From the sequence record PZ050807.1: a stretch of 45,190 nt of DNA; one strand, 5' to 3'. Both the position numbers and the translations under genes were made by a program. Source of the DNA: a phage. Each line of letters begins with the position of its first letter. The first letter of the stretch is position 1. The notes under the pieces were generated by a model. That model saw only the letters and a list, made by a program, of their open reading frames with translations, made no database searches and had not been told where the DNA came from. Below are positions 92 to 6,428 of this stretch, piece after piece.

Positions 92-1589
92 GCGCACACA
101 GGCCCAGTCGGCTAAGACCGCCGCAGAGTCAGCACGTGACGACGCGCAGACGGCTAAGACTGCCGCAGAAACAGCACGCACCCAGGCACAGACCGCGAAG
201 ACCGCCGCAGAAACCGCCCAGGGTGCGGCGGAAGACGCCCGCGATGAGGCGAAGCAATATGCAGAGCAAGCCGGAGCACCATATAAGCAGGTATTACAAC
301 CGCTACCAGACGTGTGGGTTCCGTTTAACGATTCGCTGGATATGCTCGCAGGCTTCGCGCCAGGATACAAGACGGTTACGGTAGCCGACGACGAGGTTAC
401 TATGCCGAGCGACAAGGTGGTGTCGTTTAAGCGCGCATCAACGGCAACATATATTAACAAGTCCGGCGAGTTTAAAATCGCAGAGATTGACGAGCCGAGA
501 TTCGAAAAATACGGCCTGCTCATTGAAGGGCAACGCACTAACTATTTCTCCAACTCCAACACGCCGGAATCATGGAATACAAATCCGCGTCTGACGCGCA
601 GCGAAACTAAGACTGACAGTCGCGGTTTTACTTACGCAACATTTACGCCAGGAAGTTATGTAGGACAGGTCGGTACGTACACGATTATTGCGGGATCGTC
701 GGCAAGTCCCATTGACGCAGTGCAAGACGACCATGTAACCATTTCGTTTAGGGCTAAGGGTGCTAAGCTGCGAATTGGTGCGCGATTTGACAAGGGAAGC
801 CCACTAACCACGGTAGCGATCATGTACGTGGATATGGACGACCTTTCCGTATCCACATCGGGGGCTGACGCTGATAATCTGGTGGTGAAAAACGTATCCC
901 GCGATGGGGAATGGGTGCTGGTTGAAGCTATTTATAAGGTGACGGACGACTCCGCCCAGGTTCGCGGGGTGGTATCGATGGCTAACCAAATCGGCGGCGC
1001 TCTGTTTGACGCAACCAGCACCGTCGATGTCACTACACCGCAAGTGGAGTTAGGAATTAGTGCGTCGTCGTTTATCCCAACCGCCAGCACGCCAACGACG
1101 CGAGCAAGCGATATGGTTAATATCCCAGTAACCAACAATCTACCAAACATTCCGATTAGTGTGATGACCGAAGTGCGCCGCGGTTGGGATAAAGCGCCTA
1201 GTTCGGCACCGAGGATTGCGAACACCATCGGCGTTGCAAATAACAGCGAACAGATTATTCTGGCGTTCCGCAATCCGGCGGATCCATCGGTGCAGCCGCT
1301 ACCATATGCGCAGATGGGTGTGGCACAGGCCTACGTGCCTGCGGGGTTACAACCAGGCAGGCTTATGGTGGCGGGATTCGTCGGCGGGTCAAATGGGAAG
1401 TTCAAAGCGGTTGTAAACGGCACTATGTCGCCGGAGTCTACGTCTAACTGGGCCGGGCCAGGGGCCGCCACTCAAATCCGAATCGGCGGGTCTTCGGCAG
1501 GTGGCGAGCGCCACCTTTTTGGGCACGTCCGTAACTTCCGCATCTGGCATAAAGCACTGACCGACTTACAAATGGGAGAATTAGTATGA
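1..1589 (+). CDS. Side tail fibre protein, C-terminal part (continues in frame from 44652..45190 across the window join)
   Basis: Frame at position 3 is continuous with the ORF starting at ATG 44652 once the 91-bp overlap is superimposed; Ala/Lys/Thr/Gln-rich tandem peptide repeats (AKNDAQTAKTAAETARTQAQ...) typical of fibre shafts; the internal GTG at 42 is unlikely to be the true start. Confidence 0.6.
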   Translation, partial: NAKNQAVTAKNDAVSAKNDAQTAKTAAETARTQAQSAKTAAESARDDAQTAKTAAETARTQAQTAKTAAETAQGAAEDARDEAKQYAEQAGAPYKQVLQPLPDVWVPFNDSLDMLAGFAPGYKTVTVADDEVTMPSDKVVSFKRASTATYINKSGEFKIAEIDEPRFEKYGLLIEGQRTNYFSNSNTPESWNTNPRLTRSETKTDSRGFTYATFTPGSYVGQVGTYTIIAGSSASPIDAVQDDHVTISFRAKGAKLRIGARFDKGSPLTTVAIMYVDMDDLSVSTSGADADNLVVKNVSRDGEWVLVEAIYKVTDDSAQVRGVVSMANQIGGALFDATSTVDVTTPQVELGISASSFIPTASTPTTRASDMVNIPVTNNLPNIPISVMTEVRRGWDKAPSSAPRIANTIGVANNSEQIILAFRNPADPSVQPLPYAQMGVAQAYVPAGLQPGRLMVAGFVGGSNGKFKAVVNGTMSPESTSNWAGPGAATQIRIGGSSAGGERHLFGHVRNFRIWHKALTDLQMGELV

Positions 1590-1843
1590 AAGACTTAACG
1601 CTGAAGTTTGAAAGCAAGGCCGCTTTTGCGGCCTTCAAAGCGCAATTAAACGGGGATGAGAACGAGGCGTTGCAGGATGATATTCTGCTTGATGTCATCG
1701 GCAACGTGTATGAGGGTGATGAGGATAATCTCGTTGCCGTTGAGGGCTACTTCGTTAACGTGCGCATTCTTGACGACGACCACGGCATTAACTTTGAGCA
1801 GTATGCCGTTGTGTTAGACTCACCACTTCGTCAATGGGCTTAA
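1586..1843 (+). CDS. Hypothetical acidic protein, 85 aa (position suggests a fibre-associated or assembly factor)
   Basis: ATGA start/stop overlap with the fibre gene; no recognisable motif. Confidence 0.45.
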   Translation: MKDLTLKFESKAAFAAFKAQLNGDENEALQDDILLDVIGNVYEGDEDNLVAVEGYFVNVRILDDDHGINFEQYAVVLDSPLRQWA

Positions 1844-1854
1844 GAGGGTAAATC

Positions 1855-2736
1855 ATGGTTACTAAAACAAACATCCCAGCGGATATTACGGCGCTGAAAA
1901 ATTCTACTTCATCATTGTCGTCTGACAAGATGGATAAGTCAGCCAATTTGTCGGACCTTGCAGACAAAACTGTGGCGCGAAGTAATCTTGGTTTAGGGTC
2001 AGCAGCCACGTTGGACGTAGGGGATAGCGGCGGAAACGCGATGAAGGTTGGTGATTTTGGATTGGGGCGACCTAACGGCGCTAAGGTTTTCTATACTACC
2101 TCGCAAGACACGCTACTTGCTGGACTGGACCAATACGGTTTATGTGTGTTCAGGAACGACCTGCAGATCGCTGCGCCGTGGGATATTTGGAACTATTCAT
2201 CAAACCTGTTCTTCCGCGCCGGAGATACTTACAGTATGCTAAGCATACCGTTTGAGGCGGCTGGTAAGGTGAAGGTTTTCGGCGGTGCCGCGGGTTACGG
2301 GTGGAAGACAGGGCGAACACTGCTCGATAACACAACGACGACTATTGACACTAACGGATTTGTCAAGCAAGCATCGCCGATTGTTAAAGTATTTGGTGAT
2401 GGTAAATTTGAGGTTAATGAAGAGTCGAAAGGGGCTAGTGTAGATCGCATATCCGTCGGCGTTTATCGTATCTCTGGTGTTCTCGGTCTTAACTCAGATG
2501 CGGCCTGGGGTGGCGTAGGCGGTGGCTTCGAGATTCCGGTAGACATCAACAAGCAGCCGCGGGTGTGGGTTGACTTCGAGGTTGAGCCTGAAGGGTCTAT
2601 CATTCTTAAAACGTACCACCGGACACACGACACGGCTCCGTCTTTTGCAAAAAACATAATTGACGGCGTTAATGACGGCGATCCGGTAGATATTCCATCA
2701 GACGCTTTTATCTCAGTTCGCGTTAACATGCCGTAA
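1855..2736 (+). CDS. Tail fibre protein (second fibre / receptor-binding candidate)
   Basis: N-terminal motif ANLSDLADKTVARSNLGLGSAATLDVG, characteristic of phage tail-fibre N-termini; Gly-rich beta-type C-terminus; RBS-like GAGGG upstream. Confidence 0.55.
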   Translation: MVTKTNIPADITALKNSTSSLSSDKMDKSANLSDLADKTVARSNLGLGSAATLDVGDSGGNAMKVGDFGLGRPNGAKVFYTTSQDTLLAGLDQYGLCVFRNDLQIAAPWDIWNYSSNLFFRAGDTYSMLSIPFEAAGKVKVFGGAAGYGWKTGRTLLDNTTTTIDTNGFVKQASPIVKVFGDGKFEVNEESKGASVDRISVGVYRISGVLGLNSDAAWGGVGGGFEIPVDINKQPRVWVDFEVEPEGSIILKTYHRTHDTAPSFAKNIIDGVNDGDPVDIPSDAFISVRVNMP

Positions 2737-2740
2737 GTGG

Positions 2741-2766
2741 AAAGGGGCCAAACGGCCCCTTTTTCA
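2741..2766. terminator. Bidirectional intrinsic terminator between convergent genes
   Basis: Hairpin AGGGGCC-AAAC-GGCCCCT (2743..2760) followed by TTTTT; A/T-rich on the other side. Confidence 0.7.
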
Positions 2767-3339
2767 TTGTGCGGATTCCCAGTCTATCTTTCGGCGTATT
2801 GTAGGACTTTCGAAATACTCTTTGCCGTCTACTTCAACCAAAGGCCAGTCGTTCACAATGGCGTATGGATCTGCGACCTCTTCGATTATGCCGGTGGCTT
2901 TATGCTGACCAAACCCTACCAGCACCAGAATCACCCCGGCAACGCGACGCTCCATATACTCGTATGCGCAACGTGCTTCAACCAGACCGCGACGGATGCC
3001 GGTAGTGGCCTTCACTTCGTACGACCAGACGGCATCAATAACTTGGTCTTTGTAATCCGGCCCTACTTTCACTTTGCGCTTACCAAGCATTACCACATCG
3101 CCACGGTTCATGGTGTTGCCGCTAAATAATCCGGTGCGCTGGAGTAAGCCTTGCGGGATGCAACTGCGACCGCCGGTTTGCCCTTCCAGATACATCCCTG
3201 CGAACATCTCGCCAAGTACACCAACGAGACGGCTTTGCTTGCACGCGTCGGAACGGTTACGCCAGTAGTCAAACTCAATGCTTGCAATCAACGATGCCAG
3301 ATGAAATGCTTTGCCAGATAATTCATATTCACCGTACAT
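2764..3339 (-). CDS. Hypothetical protein, 191 aa (last gene of the leftward early operon)
   Basis: Long ORF with RBS AAGGAG 8 nt upstream of the ATG at 3339; no motif recognised. Confidence 0.55.
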   Translation of the reverse strand: MYGEYELSGKAFHLASLIASIEFDYWRNRSDACKQSRLVGVLGEMFAGMYLEGQTGGRSCIPQGLLQRTGLFSGNTMNRGDVVMLGKRKVKVGPDYKDQVIDAVWSYEVKATTGIRRGLVEARCAYEYMERRVAGVILVLVGFGQHKATGIIEEVADPYAIVNDWPLVEVDGKEYFESPTIRRKIDWESAQ

Positions 3340-3383: not shown

Positions 3384-3854
3384 TTATTTAAGTGCGCCAG
3401 TCACCAGTGTTTTTTCCATGTTGCGGAAATCTTCCGGCGTCATGAGGATTTTCGACCCGTCTTCACCGTACAGCGTCACCAGCGGTTGAGCTTTCGCTAA
3501 AACTCCCTTCGGCAGCGACCACGCATCAACCTGTTTCTTCAGGCTTTCCAACTGCGCTGCCGTTACGTCGATCTGGATCTCGTCATGCACAGTTGTGTAA
3601 GACTCACCCAGTAGCGCGGAATATGCCACTAAATCCACAATGTTATCTTCCTGGTGTTTACGGGTCTGGCGTACCAGCTTCAGGCAAATCATAAATACCC
3701 AGGCTTCTTGCTCGGTAAGGTCCCGACCGGTTAGTGCGTTGAATACGGCAGCAATCTGTTTAGCGCTGCGTTCTTCTTTGCTGTCATATCCATTTTCTTT
3801 CCCGCGCTGTTCCATAGTGGTGGCGGCGTTTTTGCAGTATTCGAATGCTTTCAT
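3384..3854 (-). CDS. Hypothetical protein, 156 aa (possibly an all-alpha NTP-pyrophosphohydrolase-like fold; weak)
   Basis: ORF directly downstream of the early promoter at 3900..3928; the segment EQEAWVFMICLKLVRQ...DNIVDLVAY is faintly MazG-like. Confidence 0.5.
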   Translation of the reverse strand: MKAFEYCKNAATTMEQRGKENGYDSKEERSAKQIAAVFNALTGRDLTEQEAWVFMICLKLVRQTRKHQEDNIVDLVAYSALLGESYTTVHDEIQIDVTAAQLESLKKQVDAWSLPKGVLAKAQPLVTLYGEDGSKILMTPEDFRNMEKTLVTGALK

Positions 3855-3894
3855 GGTTTATCTCCTTGATGGGCGGCGGTATTGCCTCCCGATG

Positions 3895-3932
3895 TGGTTA
3901 ATATAGTGCAACCAAATACGGATTGCAACCAA
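3895..3932 (-). promoter_or_regulatory. Sigma70-type early promoter (minus strand): -35 TTGCAA, 17-nt spacer ending in ATTGGTTGCAC, -10 TATATT
   Basis: Read on the minus strand: TTGCAA(3928..3923)-17 nt-TATATT(3905..3900); two copies of the TTGGTTGCA motif. Confidence 0.55.
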
Positions 3933-4154
3933 TTATTTTAATTCCTCAATCAAATTGGCACGGACAATACGGGCCGAGAAGGCATCGCACACAAGATGGC
4001 AACGCGCCGTCATGACAAGCCAGCCGGTTAGGTCACGGCCTAGCAATTGCTCCGGGCGGCTTACCCGCAATACTTTATTTCCAGGGAAAACCAGGTAACG
4101 TTTAATGATCTCATCCACGACGCGCGGACTGCGATCGACGACTAAGATATTCAT
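3933..4154 (-). CDS. Hypothetical protein, 73 aa
   Basis: Strong RBS AAGGAGA upstream of the ATG at 4154; overlaps the 3' end of the methyltransferase ORF by 44 nt. Confidence 0.45.
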   Translation of the reverse strand: MNILVVDRSPRVVDEIIKRYLVFPGNKVLRVSRPEQLLGRDLTGWLVMTARCHLVCDAFSARIVRANLIEELK

Positions 4155-4620
4155 GTAGTTCTCCTTCGCTCATTATCTTGATTTGTGCGCTGCCGTTTGG
4201 TGGCGCTTCTTCAAAGATTATCAATTGCTGACACTTGTTGTTGCTCGGTCCAACCTCGCCAGTGACGGCATGGATAAACCGGATCCGCCAGTCCAGCAAT
4301 ATAATCAGGTTGGCGGTTTTCCGCGCCAGTTTGGCCCACTTCGTGGTCGTGTCCTGGTTAAGCAGCATTACCGTTTTGCGACCCTGCGATGCGCAAGTCA
4401 CCCACGGCAGCGGGTCGGAATACGGCGGATTGCACCACTTCCACCCGTTTAACTCTGACCAGTCCGCATCAAGCGCGCTATGCTCTTTCGTGAAGTAGCG
4501 CGGTAGCAAATGGTTGTGGTCACTCGCCGCCATGTCGTAACGGAATTTAAACGCCTTGCGCAGTGGTTTGAATAAGGCTGGCGGAGTGCGCCAGCTATCC
4601 TTCTGCTCATTCTCCGTCAT
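4111..4620 (-). CDS. DNA N6-adenine methyltransferase, phage Dam-like
   Basis: NPPY catalytic motif (WCNPPYSD) and size typical of the phage N6A-MTase family; start set at MTENEQ (ATG 4620). Confidence 0.65.
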   Translation of the reverse strand: MTENEQKDSWRTPPALFKPLRKAFKFRYDMAASDHNHLLPRYFTKEHSALDADWSELNGWKWCNPPYSDPLPWVTCASQGRKTVMLLNQDTTTKWAKLARKTANLIILLDWRIRFIHAVTGEVGPSNNKCQQLIIFEEAPPNGSAQIKIMSEGELHEYLSRRSQSARRG

Positions 4621-5071
4621 GCTGCGGATCCAGTGCGTAAAGTGGGATCTGTTTGGCGCTTTCCCACAGGCGTTTAATCCTTTCCTGTTCGCCTTTACCC
4701 ATTGGGCGCATGTCCGTACTATAGTTGCCGTTGGTGGTGTCACGCCACGCGATCAGCACCAGGTCTTTACGGTCGATCTTCGTTGTTCGGCCTTTCGGAC
4801 GGACGTATTCTTCAGCACGTTTGCACTGCTCGCGTAGCCCTTCGGCGGTTATCCGGGTGAGCGATACGGATGTTGTGTACCCGGAGCGCTGCATAATGGT
4901 GATCAGTTCGCCCAGCAGTTCGAAGCGTTCCTCTAATTCCAGCAATTGCTTGTTGGTATCCTGGAATTTTTTATACATATCTTCGGCGTGGCTACGTGCT
5001 TCTTCCGCCTTCTCGCGGGCTTCCAGACACTGTGAAGCCCAGTACGCTTTTTCTTCTTGTAAAATTTTCAT
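4607..5071 (-). CDS. Hypothetical coiled-coil protein, 154 aa
   Basis: Charged helical sequence; start overlaps the upstream gene stop (ATGA). Confidence 0.5.
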   Translation of the reverse strand: MKILQEEKAYWASQCLEAREKAEEARSHAEDMYKKFQDTNKQLLELEERFELLGELITIMQRSGYTTSVSLTRITAEGLREQCKRAEEYVRPKGRTTKIDRKDLVLIAWRDTTNGNYSTDMRPMGKGEQERIKRLWESAKQIPLYALDPQHDGE

Positions 5072-5394: not shown

Positions 5395-5715
5395 TTAGAA
5401 GAAATTTGGGTCGCTCATCACATCCACAAGATAAAGGTTGTTAAGGCGGTTGCCGTAATGGCCTGGCGTGCGCTGACGGCACACAACAGCGTAACCAGGG
5501 GGGATGGTATTTCCGGTCGCCAGAATCCACGCCACGCGCGCGCCGTTTAGTGATTTACCGTTGTATTCTATGCGGGTGCCGCCATCTGCAGTGTTAAGGC
5601 TGCCAATCTTCTGACCGGTAGAATTGAGACGGATAACACCAGTCTGGCTATCGTAATTAAACAGTTGTTTGGTCAGTGCTACCGAAAAATCAATTGGATC
5701 AAAGATAGTGTTCAT
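5395..5715 (-). CDS. HNH_3-like (homing-endonuclease-like) protein, possibly degenerate
   Basis: Resembles the HNH_3 pattern (GARVAWILATGNTIPPGYAVV...GNRLNNLYLV) but the expected His residues are replaced. Confidence 0.4.
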   Translation of the reverse strand: MNTIFDPIDFSVALTKQLFNYDSQTGVIRLNSTGQKIGSLNTADGGTRIEYNGKSLNGARVAWILATGNTIPPGYAVVCRQRTPGHYGNRLNNLYLVDVMSDPNFF

Positions 5716-6428
5716 TTTAAATTTTCCTCATTGACTGCAATTGCGAAGCCGCGCGGTGTGAGCGACCTGATTAATTTAGTGCGGGCGGACTTACCACCGA
5801 GCAGACTATACTGTTTGGAGTAACCTTTTTCAACAAATACCGGCTTCTTCTCCGGCATCCTGAAGCCGTTCCCCGTCCATAAGCAAGTCAGCTTCGGATA
5901 TGAATCACGCGCGTTGATATATTCCGGGAATAGCGGGTGCACATCATCTTCCGGCAGGTAGCCGCCATACTCCCACGGGTCGAACGAGTGGTCCGGCTTG
6001 CGCCACTGGGTGGATAGCACACTGCGCGGATTCTCTATCATGTATGGCACTTCGAAGAAGTCACCGAGAAAGGCCGCAATCTTCGCCGTGCGCACGGCCT
6101 TAAGCTGGAAAGCCGGGTCTTTAGCGCGTTTGCGCGGGAAAGCTGGCGCGCCGCTAACTGCCAGGTCGGTGCACGGCGGAAAGGCGTAAATAATATCAGG
6201 CGTGCCAAACTCGCCCGCCATAGCGCGGTCTACGAAGTCCAGATCGATAAACACGTTCTTATAGCGAATGCCGCGCCCATAAAGCCGGTAGTGGTTGTAG
6301 GAGCCGTGGTCGGCCCCGTCAAAGTTAAAGCAGGTGCACTTATGCCCCATCTCGGCAGCACGCTCGATCATAAGGCCGCTGCCGTCGAATAATGACCAGA
6401 TGTTTAGTATCCTAACTCGCTTATTCAC
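5712..6428 (-). CDS. Compact DNA cytosine-5 methyltransferase-like protein
   Basis: Motif I-like LFDGSG, motif IV-like PPC (AFPPCTDLAVSG) and ENV-like MIENP; GTG start overlapping the helicase stop (GTGA). Confidence 0.5.
   Translation of the reverse strand: MNKRVRILNIWSLFDGSGLMIERAAEMGHKCTCFNFDGADHGSYNHYRLYGRGIRYKNVFIDLDFVDRAMAGEFGTPDIIYAFPPCTDLAVSGAPAFPRKRAKDPAFQLKAVRTAKIAAFLGDFFEVPYMIENPRSVLSTQWRKPDHSFDPWEYGGYLPEDDVHPLFPEYINARDSYPKLTCLWTGNGFRMPEKKPVFVEKGYSKQYSLLGGKSARTKLIRSLTPRGFAIAVNEENLK

What the first reader, a model, noticed from the sequence alone, without database searches (positions are those of the whole stretch)
4111..4620. Dam-like N6A methyltransferase whose 3' end overlaps the next gene by 44 nt
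The NPPY-motif methyltransferase ORF continues 44 nt into the downstream gene (3933..4154), which has a strong RBS AAGGAGA. The long overlap may be real or may indicate a sequencing frameshift or indel. Together with the C5-MTase-like protein, this gives the early operon two self-methylation activities, presumably anti-restriction.
Basis: partly seen in the sequence, partly recalled or inferred. Interest (0 to 1): 0.4.

Follow-up and report, generated by a model that had tools for sequence, protein, structure and literature searches.

The report
Phage adenine methylase with stop-loss tail
This is an ordinary, already annotated adenine methyltransferase gene of a Dhillonvirus coliphage, and its unusually long 44-base overlap with the next gene is real: one base change removed the usual stop codon, with no sequencing error involved.

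Summary
ORF 4111..4620 (-) encodes a 169-aa PF05869 "phage Dam" protein (E 5.6e-37, NPPY at residues 64-67). It overlaps the next gene (3933..4154, -) by 44 nt, and AAGGAGA lies 6 nt before that gene's ATG.

The window is essentially a whole Dhillonvirus genome, 98.5% identical to LM40P1 over the 3.2 kb compared. In most of the genus Dam is 161 aa, ends in TGA and overlaps the next gene by 20 nt. Here that TGA is CGA (4135..4137), a single T-to-C change with no indel. The change is synonymous (Val6 GTT to GTC) in the overlapped gene. Translation therefore runs 8 codons further (RSQSARRG) to the next TGA.

The same 169-aa allele occurs in LM40P1, slur05, SECphi4 and JLBYU60, in a 90%-identity cluster of 62 sequences, so it is not an assembly artefact. 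Differences within the tail are synonymous for the downstream gene and non-synonymous for Dam, so the tail is a passenger.

The overlapped gene is a homologue of Ksap1, the Dhillonvirus protein sensed by Klebsiella Avs2. The "C5-MTase-like" protein is 54% identical to an experimentally shown phage Dcm.

Anti-restriction is plausible but unproven. BASEL Dhillonviruses are restriction-sensitive, and Avs2 escaper phages that lost part of the gene upstream of ksap1, inferred to be dam, are viable. Overall this is ordinary and already known.

The parts
4111..4620 (-). Dam-like N6-adenine DNA methyltransferase gene, 169 codons plus TGA. This is the stop-loss allele of the usual 161-codon gene.
   Evidence: ORF listing and sequence. 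Pfam PF05869 E 5.6e-37, 127.4 bits against a cut-off of 28.1. phrog_111 'DNA methyltransferase' E 7e-54. 85-88% identical to the annotated Dam of Oekolampad, Ioannina and YD-2008.s. The exact sequence is in public collections on 5 contigs.
4420..4431 (-). Catalytic motif IV, N64-P-P-Y67 (AAT CCG CCG TAT).
   Evidence: Read. P66 and Y67 are invariant, and N64 and P65 are present in every full-length homologue, the only exception being a fragment that lacks this stretch. The motif also aligns with NPPYS of the T1-type Dams of Tls and KarlJaspers.
4135..4137 (-). CGA (Arg162) at the position where most of the genus has the Dam stop codon TGA. The changed base is 4137. The same change is GTT to GTC (Val6, synonymous) in the overlapping gene.
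   Evidence: DNA alignment without gaps. In a survey of 19 relatives alignable at the junction, 15 have TGA and 4 have CGA, the latter being L004, L007, L020 and L021. SECphi18 also has TGA.
4111..4134 (-). The rest of the 8-codon extension (S163..G169) and the new stop TGA at 4111..4113.
   Evidence: Between the window and slur05 (L007) the three substitutions in this stretch are all synonymous in the downstream frame and all amino-acid-changing in the Dam tail (SQSA against PKSS).
3933..4154 (-). Homologue of ksap1 (73 aa), whose first 44 nt lie inside the Dam gene.
   Evidence: phrog_10685 E 4e-40. tblastn hits in 158 phage records, essentially all Dhillonvirus. About 58% identical to SECphi18 Ksap1, with escape residues L47 and T50 conserved as L46 and T49. 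The same position after the methyltransferase gene as described in PMC11564622.
4160..4166 (-). Shine-Dalgarno sequence AAGGAGA for the ksap1 homologue, lying inside Dam codons S-E-G-E.
   Evidence: Sequence. It is conserved in position in relatives as GAAGGAGAA, GAGGGAGAA, GAAGGTGAA or GAGAGTGAG.
4607..5071 (-). Upstream gene (154 aa, function unknown). Its last 14 nt overlap the start of Dam.
   Evidence: ORF listing. phrog_10530 match to residues 1-153. The same 14-nt overlap is annotated in Oekolampad, Ioannina and YD-2008.s.
5712..6428 (-). Small Dcm-like C5-cytosine methyltransferase (238 aa), the second methyltransferase mentioned in the finding.
   Evidence: phrog_757 E 2.7e-80. 54% identical over its full length to KarlJaspers Dcm, with Cys82 and Glu128 conserved as Cys86 and Glu132. 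The closely related K42 enzyme was shown to make 5mC and to need a CCWGG site in msDNA. There is no Pfam hit even at E = 10.
3384..3854 (-). DUF6378 gene, the next gene after the ksap1 homologue in this genome.
   Evidence: PF19905 E 2.9e-10. 72% identical to Oekolampad bas18_0029 and unrelated to the HAD-type 'putative phosphatase' bas18_0030, which this genome lacks.

Best explanation
The gene encodes a small orphan DNA N6-adenine methyltransferase of the phage 'Dam' family PF05869. That family also holds the T1-type Dam enzymes. The gene is expressed from a tightly packed minus-strand block of replication and modification genes in a Dhillonvirus.

In the genus, dam and the next gene (a ksap1 homologue) normally overlap by 20 nt, with the ksap1 ribosome-binding site and start codon inside the last codons of dam. 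In this lineage one T-to-C substitution changed the dam stop TGA to CGA. The change is silent in ksap1. Ribosomes therefore continue for 8 more codons (RSQSARRG) to the next in-frame TGA, which lengthens the overlap to 44 nt.

The tail is a by-product whose sequence is dictated by selection on ksap1, and it is most likely neutral for the enzyme.

Shown:
- Family membership and the catalytic motif.
- The substitution, and its recurrence in independent genomes.
- The pattern of substitutions within the overlap.

Inferred:
- The enzyme methylates phage DNA at adenine, most likely at a defined short site such as GATC, as reported for T1.
- Methylation gives at most narrow protection against restriction.
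- ksap1 in this allele is translated mainly by direct initiation at its strong SD plus ATG, not by re-initiation after dam termination.
For: - Family: PF05869 at 127.4 bits against a cut-off of 28.1, and phrog_111. NPPY and the N-terminal D-x-W-x-T-P and D-x-A-A motifs align with Tls and KarlJaspers Dam and are conserved in alignment A3.
- Stop-loss: gap-free DNA alignment with TGA in relatives and CGA here. Dam is 161 aa in 15 of 19 relatives alignable at the junction, and 169 aa in the window, LM40P1 (two records) and slur05.
- More distant homologues (63-70% identical) end within a few residues of position 161, so the short form is ancestral.
- Not an artefact: the exact protein is on 5 contigs. 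Its 90%-identity cluster has 62 members, and 11 of the 15 listed are 169 aa, including SECphi4 QJI52516.1, slur05 YP_009208091.1 and JLBYU60 YP_010740318.1.
- Passenger tail: the three differences between the window and slur05 in the extension are all synonymous for ksap1 and all non-synonymous for Dam.
- The downstream gene is real: phrog_10685, 158 Dhillonvirus records, and a start codon that varies ATG/TTG/GTG at one fixed position.
- Other gene junctions in the block overlap by 1, 4 or 14 nt.
Against: - No experiment on any Dhillonvirus Dam was found, so activity and target sequence are inferred from homology of only about 30% identity to T1-type enzymes.
- The NCBIfam equivalog TIGR01712 is matched below its cut-off (85.8 against 97.05 bits).
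- The AlphaFold model was poor (pLDDT 65) and gave no significant structural match, so the fold is supported by sequence profiles only.
- A basic tail (4 Arg in 8 residues) could in principle affect DNA binding.
- The direction of the change (TGA ancestral) rests on majority and outgroup lengths, not on a rooted tree.
Confidence: 0.88

Rival explanations
1. The 44-nt overlap is an artefact: a sequencing or assembly frameshift or indel near 4100..4160 hides the true stop of the methyltransferase gene.
For: Only the general prior that unusually long overlaps can signal errors. Most relatives have a 20-nt overlap.
Against: - The alignment to four relatives has no gap in this stretch. The difference is one substitution.
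- The identical junction is found in two LM40P1 assemblies (L020, L021), in slur05 and in the ctFRY1-like contig.
- The 169-aa protein is deposited for SECphi4, slur05 and JLBYU60, and the exact window protein occurs on 5 contigs.
- Both reading frames stay intact and homologous on either side of the junction.
Confidence: 0.02
2. The stop-loss is adaptive. Either the basic RSQSARRG tail improves DNA binding or stability of the enzyme, or the longer overlap lowers or retunes translation of ksap1, the protein sensed by Avs2.
For: - The allele persists in a sizeable lineage (62-member cluster) and has spread into a mosaic dam gene in slur05 and JLBYU60.
- All CGA alleles seen carry ATG and not the TTG or GTG found in many TGA alleles.
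- In TTG alleles the SD can pair with the start region (AGGAG with CUCCU), and that hairpin is absent here.
- ksap1 is under known defence pressure.
Against: - The tail sequence is not conserved (SQSA against PKSS against longer variants), while ksap1 is unchanged.
- 161-aa and 169-aa forms coexist within one 90%-identity cluster.
- The folds are no more stable than shuffled sequence (z from -1.4 to +0.9).
- The sample of alleles is small.
- The allele is linked to a particular ksap1 variant, so it can hitch-hike.
Confidence: 0.08
3. The enzyme is not a GATC-type site-specific methylase protecting against restriction. It may have a different or relaxed target, or serve another role such as marking DNA for replication or packaging, or escaping mismatch repair.
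For: - Specificity cannot be read from a 161-aa enzyme without a recognisable target-recognition domain, and identity to T1-type Dam is only about 30%.
- Relaxed-specificity phage adenine methylases exist in other families.
- Dhillonviruses are reported as restriction-sensitive.
- GATC is only mildly under-represented, with 151 sites and observed/expected 0.74-0.86.
- Viable deletions remove part of the gene upstream of ksap1, inferred to be dam.
Against: - The relaxed-specificity enzymes checked (Hia5 group, phiP27 NP_543076 type) belong to other families and are of other sizes.
- The sensitivity of BASEL Dhillonviruses to type I and II systems argues against broad adenine methylation.
- T1, the family's classical member, is cited as methylating its own DNA. 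GATC as its site is from my own knowledge of Auer and Schweiger 1984 and Schneider-Scherzer 1990.
Confidence: 0.3

Closest known systems
Dam-like methyltransferases of other Dhillonviruses (for example Oekolampad bas18_0032 QXV82998.1, YD-2008.s EpYD_10, SECphi4 QJI52516.1, slur05 YP_009208091.1)
   Same: Same gene at the same position, 85-100% identical, with the same 14-nt overlap with the upstream gene and the same embedded start of ksap1. SECphi4, slur05, JLBYU60 and LM40P1 carry the same 169-aa stop-loss form.
   Different: Most members (Oekolampad, YD-2008.s, Ioannina, HK578, SECphi18 and others) stop 8 codons earlier at TGA and overlap ksap1 by 20 nt instead of 44 nt.
T1-type phage Dam (Tls dam YP_001285551.1, KarlJaspers bas06_0042; Pfam PF05869)
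   Same: Same Pfam family. The D-x-W-x-T-P, D-x-A-A and NPPYS motifs are shared in the same order, with 29-30% identity and E 2e-17 to 9e-14. Both are orphan enzymes in lytic siphophages.
   Different: T1-type proteins are 233-246 aa, with an N-terminal extension of about 55 residues and an insertion near residue 110. The Dhillonvirus enzyme is a minimal 161-169 aa version. Its target site is untested.
E. coli Dam, T4 Dam and DpnM (alpha-class, Pfam PF02086)
   Same: Only the name and the presumed chemistry (AdoMet-dependent N6-adenine methylation with a (D/N)PPY motif).
   Different: No PF02086 match in the Pfam scan and no sequence match to any solved structure at E up to 1. It is a different family, so 'Dam-like' is a functional label and not orthology.
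Ksap1 of phage SECphi18 (Bechon et al. 2024, PMC11564622)
   Same: The overlapped downstream gene is its homologue. It is 73 aa against 74 aa, about 58% identical, and sits directly after dam. The core DLTGWLV(I/M)T-RCH-VC is conserved, including the escape positions.
   Different: The N-terminal third differs (VFPGNKV against IDPRRDHV). In this genome it is followed by a 78-nt spacer and the DUF6378 gene instead of the phosphatase gene. Recognition by KpAvs2 is untested for this variant.
Phage K42 / KarlJaspers Dcm, the trigger of retron Ec86 (bioRxiv 10.1101/2023.08.16.553469)
   Same: The window's second methyltransferase (5712..6428) is 54% identical over its full length, of the same size (238 against 236 aa), and conserves the catalytic Cys and Glu.
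   Different: One of the two Lys residues mutated in that study is Leu here (K176 to L180). Target site and activity are untested for the Dhillonvirus protein. There is no Pfam PF00145 match.

Membership tests
[quoted passage not shown] | Score above the curated gathering threshold of the family profile | tested here: met
   127.4 bits against a cut-off of 28.1, E 5.6e-37, residues 2-141 on profile positions 4-150 of 169. All 14 database homologues carry PF05869.
[quoted passage not shown] | Catalytic motif IV (D/N)PP(Y/F) of amino-methyltransferases | tested here: met
   N64-P-P-Y67 (nt 4420..4431). P66 and Y67 are invariant, and the motif is present in every full-length sequence of alignment A3. 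It aligns with NPPYS of Tls and KarlJaspers Dam.
[quoted passage not shown] | Rossmann-type methyltransferase fold | tested here: inconclusive
   The AlphaFold2 model from a 12-sequence alignment has mean pLDDT 65, with residues 27-64 below 50. Foldseek against the PDB gave no match with E below 0.001, and methyltransferases appear only among insignificant hits.
[quoted passage not shown] | N6-methylation of adenine in DNA, and the target sequence | not testable with these tools
   This needs methylome sequencing or methylation-sensitive digestion. No published data for the genus were found.
NCBIfam TIGR01712 phage_N6A_met (equivalog) | Score above the curated cut-off | tested here: not met
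   85.8 bits against a cut-off of 97.05. It is related, but not an equivalog-level member.
Alpha-class Dam (E. coli Dam / T4 Dam / DpnM, Pfam PF02086) | Match to the family profile or to solved members | tested here: not met
   PF05869 was the only Pfam family at E up to 0.01. No PDB sequence match at E up to 1.
Orphan (solitary) phage methyltransferase | No cognate restriction endonuclease gene next to it | tested here: met
   The neighbours are a 154-aa protein of unknown function, the ksap1 homologue, a DUF6378 protein and a small HNH homing-type endonuclease. None matches a restriction-enzyme family.
Ksap1 (Avs2-stimulating protein 1 of Dhillonvirus), for the overlapped gene | Homology to SECphi18 Ksap1, position directly after the methyltransferase gene, genus-restricted distribution | tested here: met
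   About 58% identity with L47 and T50 conserved. Position as in PMC11564622. 158 phage records, essentially all Dhillonvirus. Binding to KpAvs2 is not testable here.
C5-cytosine DNA methyltransferase (for the neighbouring gene 5712..6428) | Pfam PF00145 match | tested here: not met
   No Pfam family even at E = 10 and no PDB sequence match.
C5-cytosine DNA methyltransferase (for the neighbouring gene 5712..6428) | Homology to an enzyme shown to make 5-methylcytosine, with the catalytic Cys (PC motif) and Glu (ENx motif) present | tested here: met
   54% identity over 231 residues to KarlJaspers Dcm, E 2e-86. FPPC and ENP are conserved as C86 and E132.

The most novel reading that the evidence does not exclude
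The stop-loss allele is not neutral. By removing dam's own stop it lengthens the dam/ksap1 overlap and changes how much Ksap1, the Avs2 trigger, is made. It also predisposes the locus to in-frame fusions when ksap1 is deleted under Avs2 pressure. One natural genome (L004, protein P0017, seen on 6 contigs) has lost ksap1 and now encodes a 348-aa Dam-DUF6378 fusion, which could be a functional new two-domain enzyme.
Probability: 0.08. Interest if true: 0.35.

Novelty: already known. Interest (0 to 1): 0.12.

Why it matters
It matters little beyond correct annotation. The gene, its 169-aa form and its neighbours are already deposited for several Dhillonviruses, and the overlapped gene has been characterised as an Avs2 trigger.

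The useful outcomes are practical:
- The long overlap should not be 'corrected' as a frameshift.
- The downstream ORF should be labelled as a ksap1 homologue.
- Claims that the two methyltransferases protect the phage from restriction should be treated as untested.

Tried and rejected
- **Sequencing error or indel.** Rejected by the gap-free alignment and by recurrence in independent genomes.
- **Longer ORF from GTG 4743.** Rejected because that stretch is the 3' end of the upstream gene, and both the Pfam match and relatives' annotations start at ATG 4620.
- **Structure route.** AlphaFold2 on a 12-sequence alignment gave pLDDT 65. Foldseek against the PDB returned nothing significant, and phmmer against PDB sequences found nothing. 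This route led nowhere.
- **Link to the relaxed-specificity adenine methylases.** The Hia5 group is alpha-class and Dam-related, and phiP27 NP_543076.1 is a 352-aa protein of a different type. Neither is this family.
- **Literature search for methylation or digestion data on Dhillonvirus DNA, or for PF05869 specificity.** Nothing direct was found.
- **A wider survey of the junction in IMG/VR with a degenerate DNA pattern.** It returned the same 15 contigs as the protein-based scan.
- **RNA folding around the ksap1 start.** No fold was more stable than shuffled controls.
- **Pfam and PDB searches for the Dcm-like protein.** These gave nothing. Its assignment rests on PHROG and on homology to the K42/KarlJaspers enzyme.

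Full report
**What is in the sequence**

On the minus strand an ORF runs from ATG 4620 to TGA 4111..4113 and encodes 169 residues. The mechanical ORF listing extends it upstream to GTG 4743. That stretch is the 3' end of the upstream gene 4607..5071, whose PHROG match covers residues 1-153 of 154. The Pfam match begins at residue 2 of the ATG-4620 product, and annotated relatives start at the same place.

The protein matches Pfam PF05869, the phage DNA N-6-adenine-methyltransferase family, with 127.4 bits against a gathering score of 28.1 (E 5.6e-37). It also matches phrog_111 'DNA methyltransferase'. NPPY is at residues 64-67 (nt 4420..4431).

The next ORF, 3933..4154, starts with ATG 4152..4154. 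AAGGAGA lies at 4160..4166, with six bases between AAGGAG and the ATG. The two ORFs share 4111..4154, which is 44 nt.

**Where the window comes from**

The 3.2 kb around the finding is 98.3-98.5% identical to two genome records named Dhillonvirus LM40P1 and 94.8% identical to a third. It is 78-92% identical to many annotated Dhillonvirus coliphages such as Ioannina, YD-2008.s, Oekolampad, SECphi4 and Envy. At 45,190 bases the window is the size of a whole genome of this genus.

**Why the overlap is 44 nt**

In Oekolampad, Ioannina and YD-2008.s the homologous gene is annotated as 486 nt (161 aa) and overlaps the next gene by 20 nt. The protein alignment shows 85-88% identity up to residue 161, after which only the window continues, with RSQSARRG.

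The DNA alignment has no gap in this stretch. Relatives read ...AGT CGT TGA and the window reads ...AGT CGT CGA TCG CAG TCC GCG CGT CGT GGA TGA. A single T-to-C change at minus-strand position 4137 therefore removed the stop. In the frame of the downstream gene the same base is the third position of Val6 (GTT to GTC), so the change is silent there.

**Is the allele real and how common is it**

I compared the junction in 19 relatives where both genes could be aligned.
- 15 have TGA with a 20-nt overlap.
- Four have CGA: two LM40P1 records, L007 (a 43,900-bp contig whose length matches slur05 LN881730) and L004.

SECphi18 also has TGA.

In the large protein collection the exact window protein occurs on 5 contigs. 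Its 90%-identity cluster has 62 members, and 11 of the 15 listed are 169 aa, including SECphi4 QJI52516.1, slur05 YP_009208091.1 and JLBYU60 YP_010740318.1. The neighbouring cluster, whose representative is 161 aa, has 496 members. More distant homologues (63-70% identical) end within a few residues of position 161, so the short form is the ancestral state.

The slur05 and JLBYU60 proteins resemble the 161-aa group in their first two-thirds and the window type in the last third. This suggests that the CGA allele moves by recombination together with the 73-aa variant of the downstream gene.

**Is the tail functional**

Within the extension the window and slur05 differ at three bases. All three are synonymous in the downstream frame (both encode DRSPRVVDE) and all three change the Dam tail (SQSA against PKSS). 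Other members have still other tails.

Selection therefore acts on the downstream gene, and the Dam tail is a passenger. I cannot exclude a mild effect of four extra arginines on DNA binding.

**The overlapped gene is a ksap1 homologue**

The 73-aa product has no Pfam match but matches phrog_10685 (E 4e-40). It is found by tblastn in 158 phage records, essentially all Dhillonvirus.

Bechon et al. 2024 (PMC11564622) describe Ksap1 as a 74-aa protein encoded between the methyltransferase and phosphatase genes of the Dhillonvirus SECphi18.
- It is bound by the Klebsiella Avs2 defence protein and activates it.

I extracted the SECphi18 protein from its genome. It is about 58% identical to the window protein, and the core DLTGWLV(I/M)T-RCH-VC, which includes both escape positions, is conserved.

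Across the genus the start codon of this gene is ATG, TTG or GTG at one fixed position behind a Shine-Dalgarno sequence inside dam. This supports that start and fits translational coupling. In TTG alleles the SD can pair with the start region, and that pairing is absent in the window. None of these folds beats shuffled controls, however, so this remains a hint only.

**How the methyltransferase most likely works**

By homology it is an AdoMet-dependent N6-adenine DNA methyltransferase. It shares the ordered D-x-W-x-T-P, D-x-A-A and NPPYS motifs with the T1-type Dams of Tls and KarlJaspers at 29-30% identity. It lacks their N-terminal extension and an internal insertion.

It is not related to E. 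coli or T4 Dam (no PF02086 match; no match to any solved structure). It scores below the cut-off of the NCBIfam equivalog TIGR01712. No restriction enzyme gene lies nearby, so it is an orphan.

Phage T1 is cited as methylating its own DNA with its enzyme. That the T1 site is GATC is from my own knowledge of Auer and Schweiger 1984 and Schneider-Scherzer et al. 1990. I therefore favour a defined short site such as GATC. The genome has 151 GATC sites, only mildly under-represented at observed/expected 0.74-0.86. This is inference.

The structure prediction was too poor to help (pLDDT 65, no significant Foldseek match).

**The anti-restriction idea**

The second methyltransferase is real. The 238-aa product of 5712..6428 has no Pfam match even at E = 10. 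It is nevertheless 54% identical over its full length to the 236-aa Dcm of KarlJaspers, with the catalytic Cys and Glu conserved. The enzyme of the closely related strain K42 was shown by LC-MS to make 5mC on retron Ec86 msDNA, defence required the CCWGG site in that msDNA, and the enzyme triggers the retron.

Three points caution against a simple anti-restriction reading.
- The BASEL study describes Dhillonviruses as sensitive to type I and II restriction systems compared with Queuovirinae. It found no simple link between methyltransferase genes and resistance in the related Drexlerviridae.
- SECphi18 mutants lacking part of the gene upstream of ksap1, which I infer to be dam, are viable.
- Phage Dcm and Dam can betray the phage to retrons.

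Anti-restriction is therefore plausible for a narrow set of enzymes but is unproven.

**Comparison and novelty**

The gene is a member of a known family. The same 169-aa form is already annotated in GenBank and RefSeq for several phages, and the overlapped gene is characterised in the literature. The only additions here are the explanation of the long overlap as a stop-loss allele and some side observations. I rate it as already known and of low interest.

**Side observations**

- One natural genome (L004, protein P0017, 348 aa, seen on 6 contigs, also deposited as Siphoviridae sp. ctFRY1) has lost almost all of ksap1. Because its dam carries CGA instead of TGA, dam now reads in frame into the DUF6378 gene. 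This resembles the laboratory Avs2 escape deletions.
- In Ioannina the ksap1 homologue is fused to the phosphatase gene (230 aa), and the DUF6378 gene is labelled as a second adenine methyltransferase, which looks like a mis-annotation.
- The window and LM40P1 lack the HAD-type phosphatase gene that most of the genus has after ksap1. They have instead a 78-nt spacer with a promoter-like TTGCAA-17-TATATT.
- GAATTC and GATATC are strongly depleted, at 1 and 2 sites against about 9 expected.

Noticed in passing
window 3933..4154 (-): The gene overlapped by dam is a homologue of Ksap1, the Dhillonvirus protein that binds and activates the Klebsiella Avs2 defence protein (PMC11564622). It is about 58% identical to SECphi18 Ksap1, and the escape positions L47 and T50 are conserved as L46 and T49. 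Its N-terminus (MNILVVD) looks like that of a response-regulator receiver, as that paper also noted from fold searches.
   Followed up: yes
L004 about 2001..3050 (IMGVR_UViG_3300045988_003101); protein P0017: This genome carries a natural deletion of almost all of ksap1, leaving 12 codons. Because its dam has CGA instead of the ancestral TGA, dam reads in frame into the DUF6378 gene and gives a 348-aa fusion. The fusion is seen on 6 contigs and is deposited as Siphoviridae sp. ctFRY1 DAF54266.1. It resembles the laboratory Avs2 escape deletions.
   Followed up: partly
L002 (Ioannina OQ589852.1) 585..1810: In Ioannina the ksap1 homologue has lost its stop and is fused to the HAD phosphatase gene (230 aa, annotated 'acid phosphatase'). 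The DUF6378 gene next to it is annotated as a second 'DNA N-6-adenine-methyltransferase', which appears to be a mis-annotation.
   Followed up: partly
window 3855..3932, and 3384..3854 (-): This genome and LM40P1 lack the HAD-type 'putative phosphatase' gene that most Dhillonviruses carry right after ksap1. Instead a 78-nt spacer with a promoter-like TTGCAA-17-TATATT (3900..3928) and a repeated TTGGTTGCA precedes the DUF6378 gene.
   Followed up: partly
window 5712..6428 (-): The Dcm-like methyltransferase has no Pfam match even at E = 10 and no PDB sequence match. It nevertheless belongs to a widespread phage family (1514 phage records) whose KarlJaspers/K42 member is an experimentally shown 5mC methylase and a trigger of retron Ec86. 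One of the two Lys residues mutated in that study is Leu here.
   Followed up: partly
window 4152..4170 (-) and the same place in L001-L021: The ksap1 start codon is polymorphic (ATG, TTG or GTG) at one fixed position. TTG alleles have the strong SD GAAGGAGAA, which can pair with CUCCUUG. Many ATG alleles have the weak GAGAGUGAG. The window lineage combines a strong SD with ATG. All five CGA (stop-loss) alleles seen use ATG. The sample is small, and the folds are no better than shuffled controls.
   Followed up: partly
whole window: GAATTC (1 site) and GATATC (2 sites) are strongly depleted against about 9 expected, and CTAG has 14 sites against 52-175 expected. GATC (151 sites) and CCWGG (147 sites) are not avoided.
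   Followed up: no
window 4607..5071 (-): The 154-aa upstream protein matches phrog_10530, which is labelled 'DNA ligase', a label copied into some RefSeq records. It has no Pfam or NCBIfam support and is far too small for a ligase, so the label is doubtful.
   Followed up: no
proteins P0018 and P0020 (slur05, JLBYU60): Their Dam is a mosaic. The first 120 or so residues match the 161-aa group and the last third matches the window type, including the stop-loss tail. This points to recombination within the gene.
   Followed up: no
window 5395..5715 (-): A small HNH homing-type endonuclease gene (phrog_99, E 1e-13) overlaps the end of the Dcm-like gene by 4 nt. Some relatives appear to lack it.
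   Followed up: no
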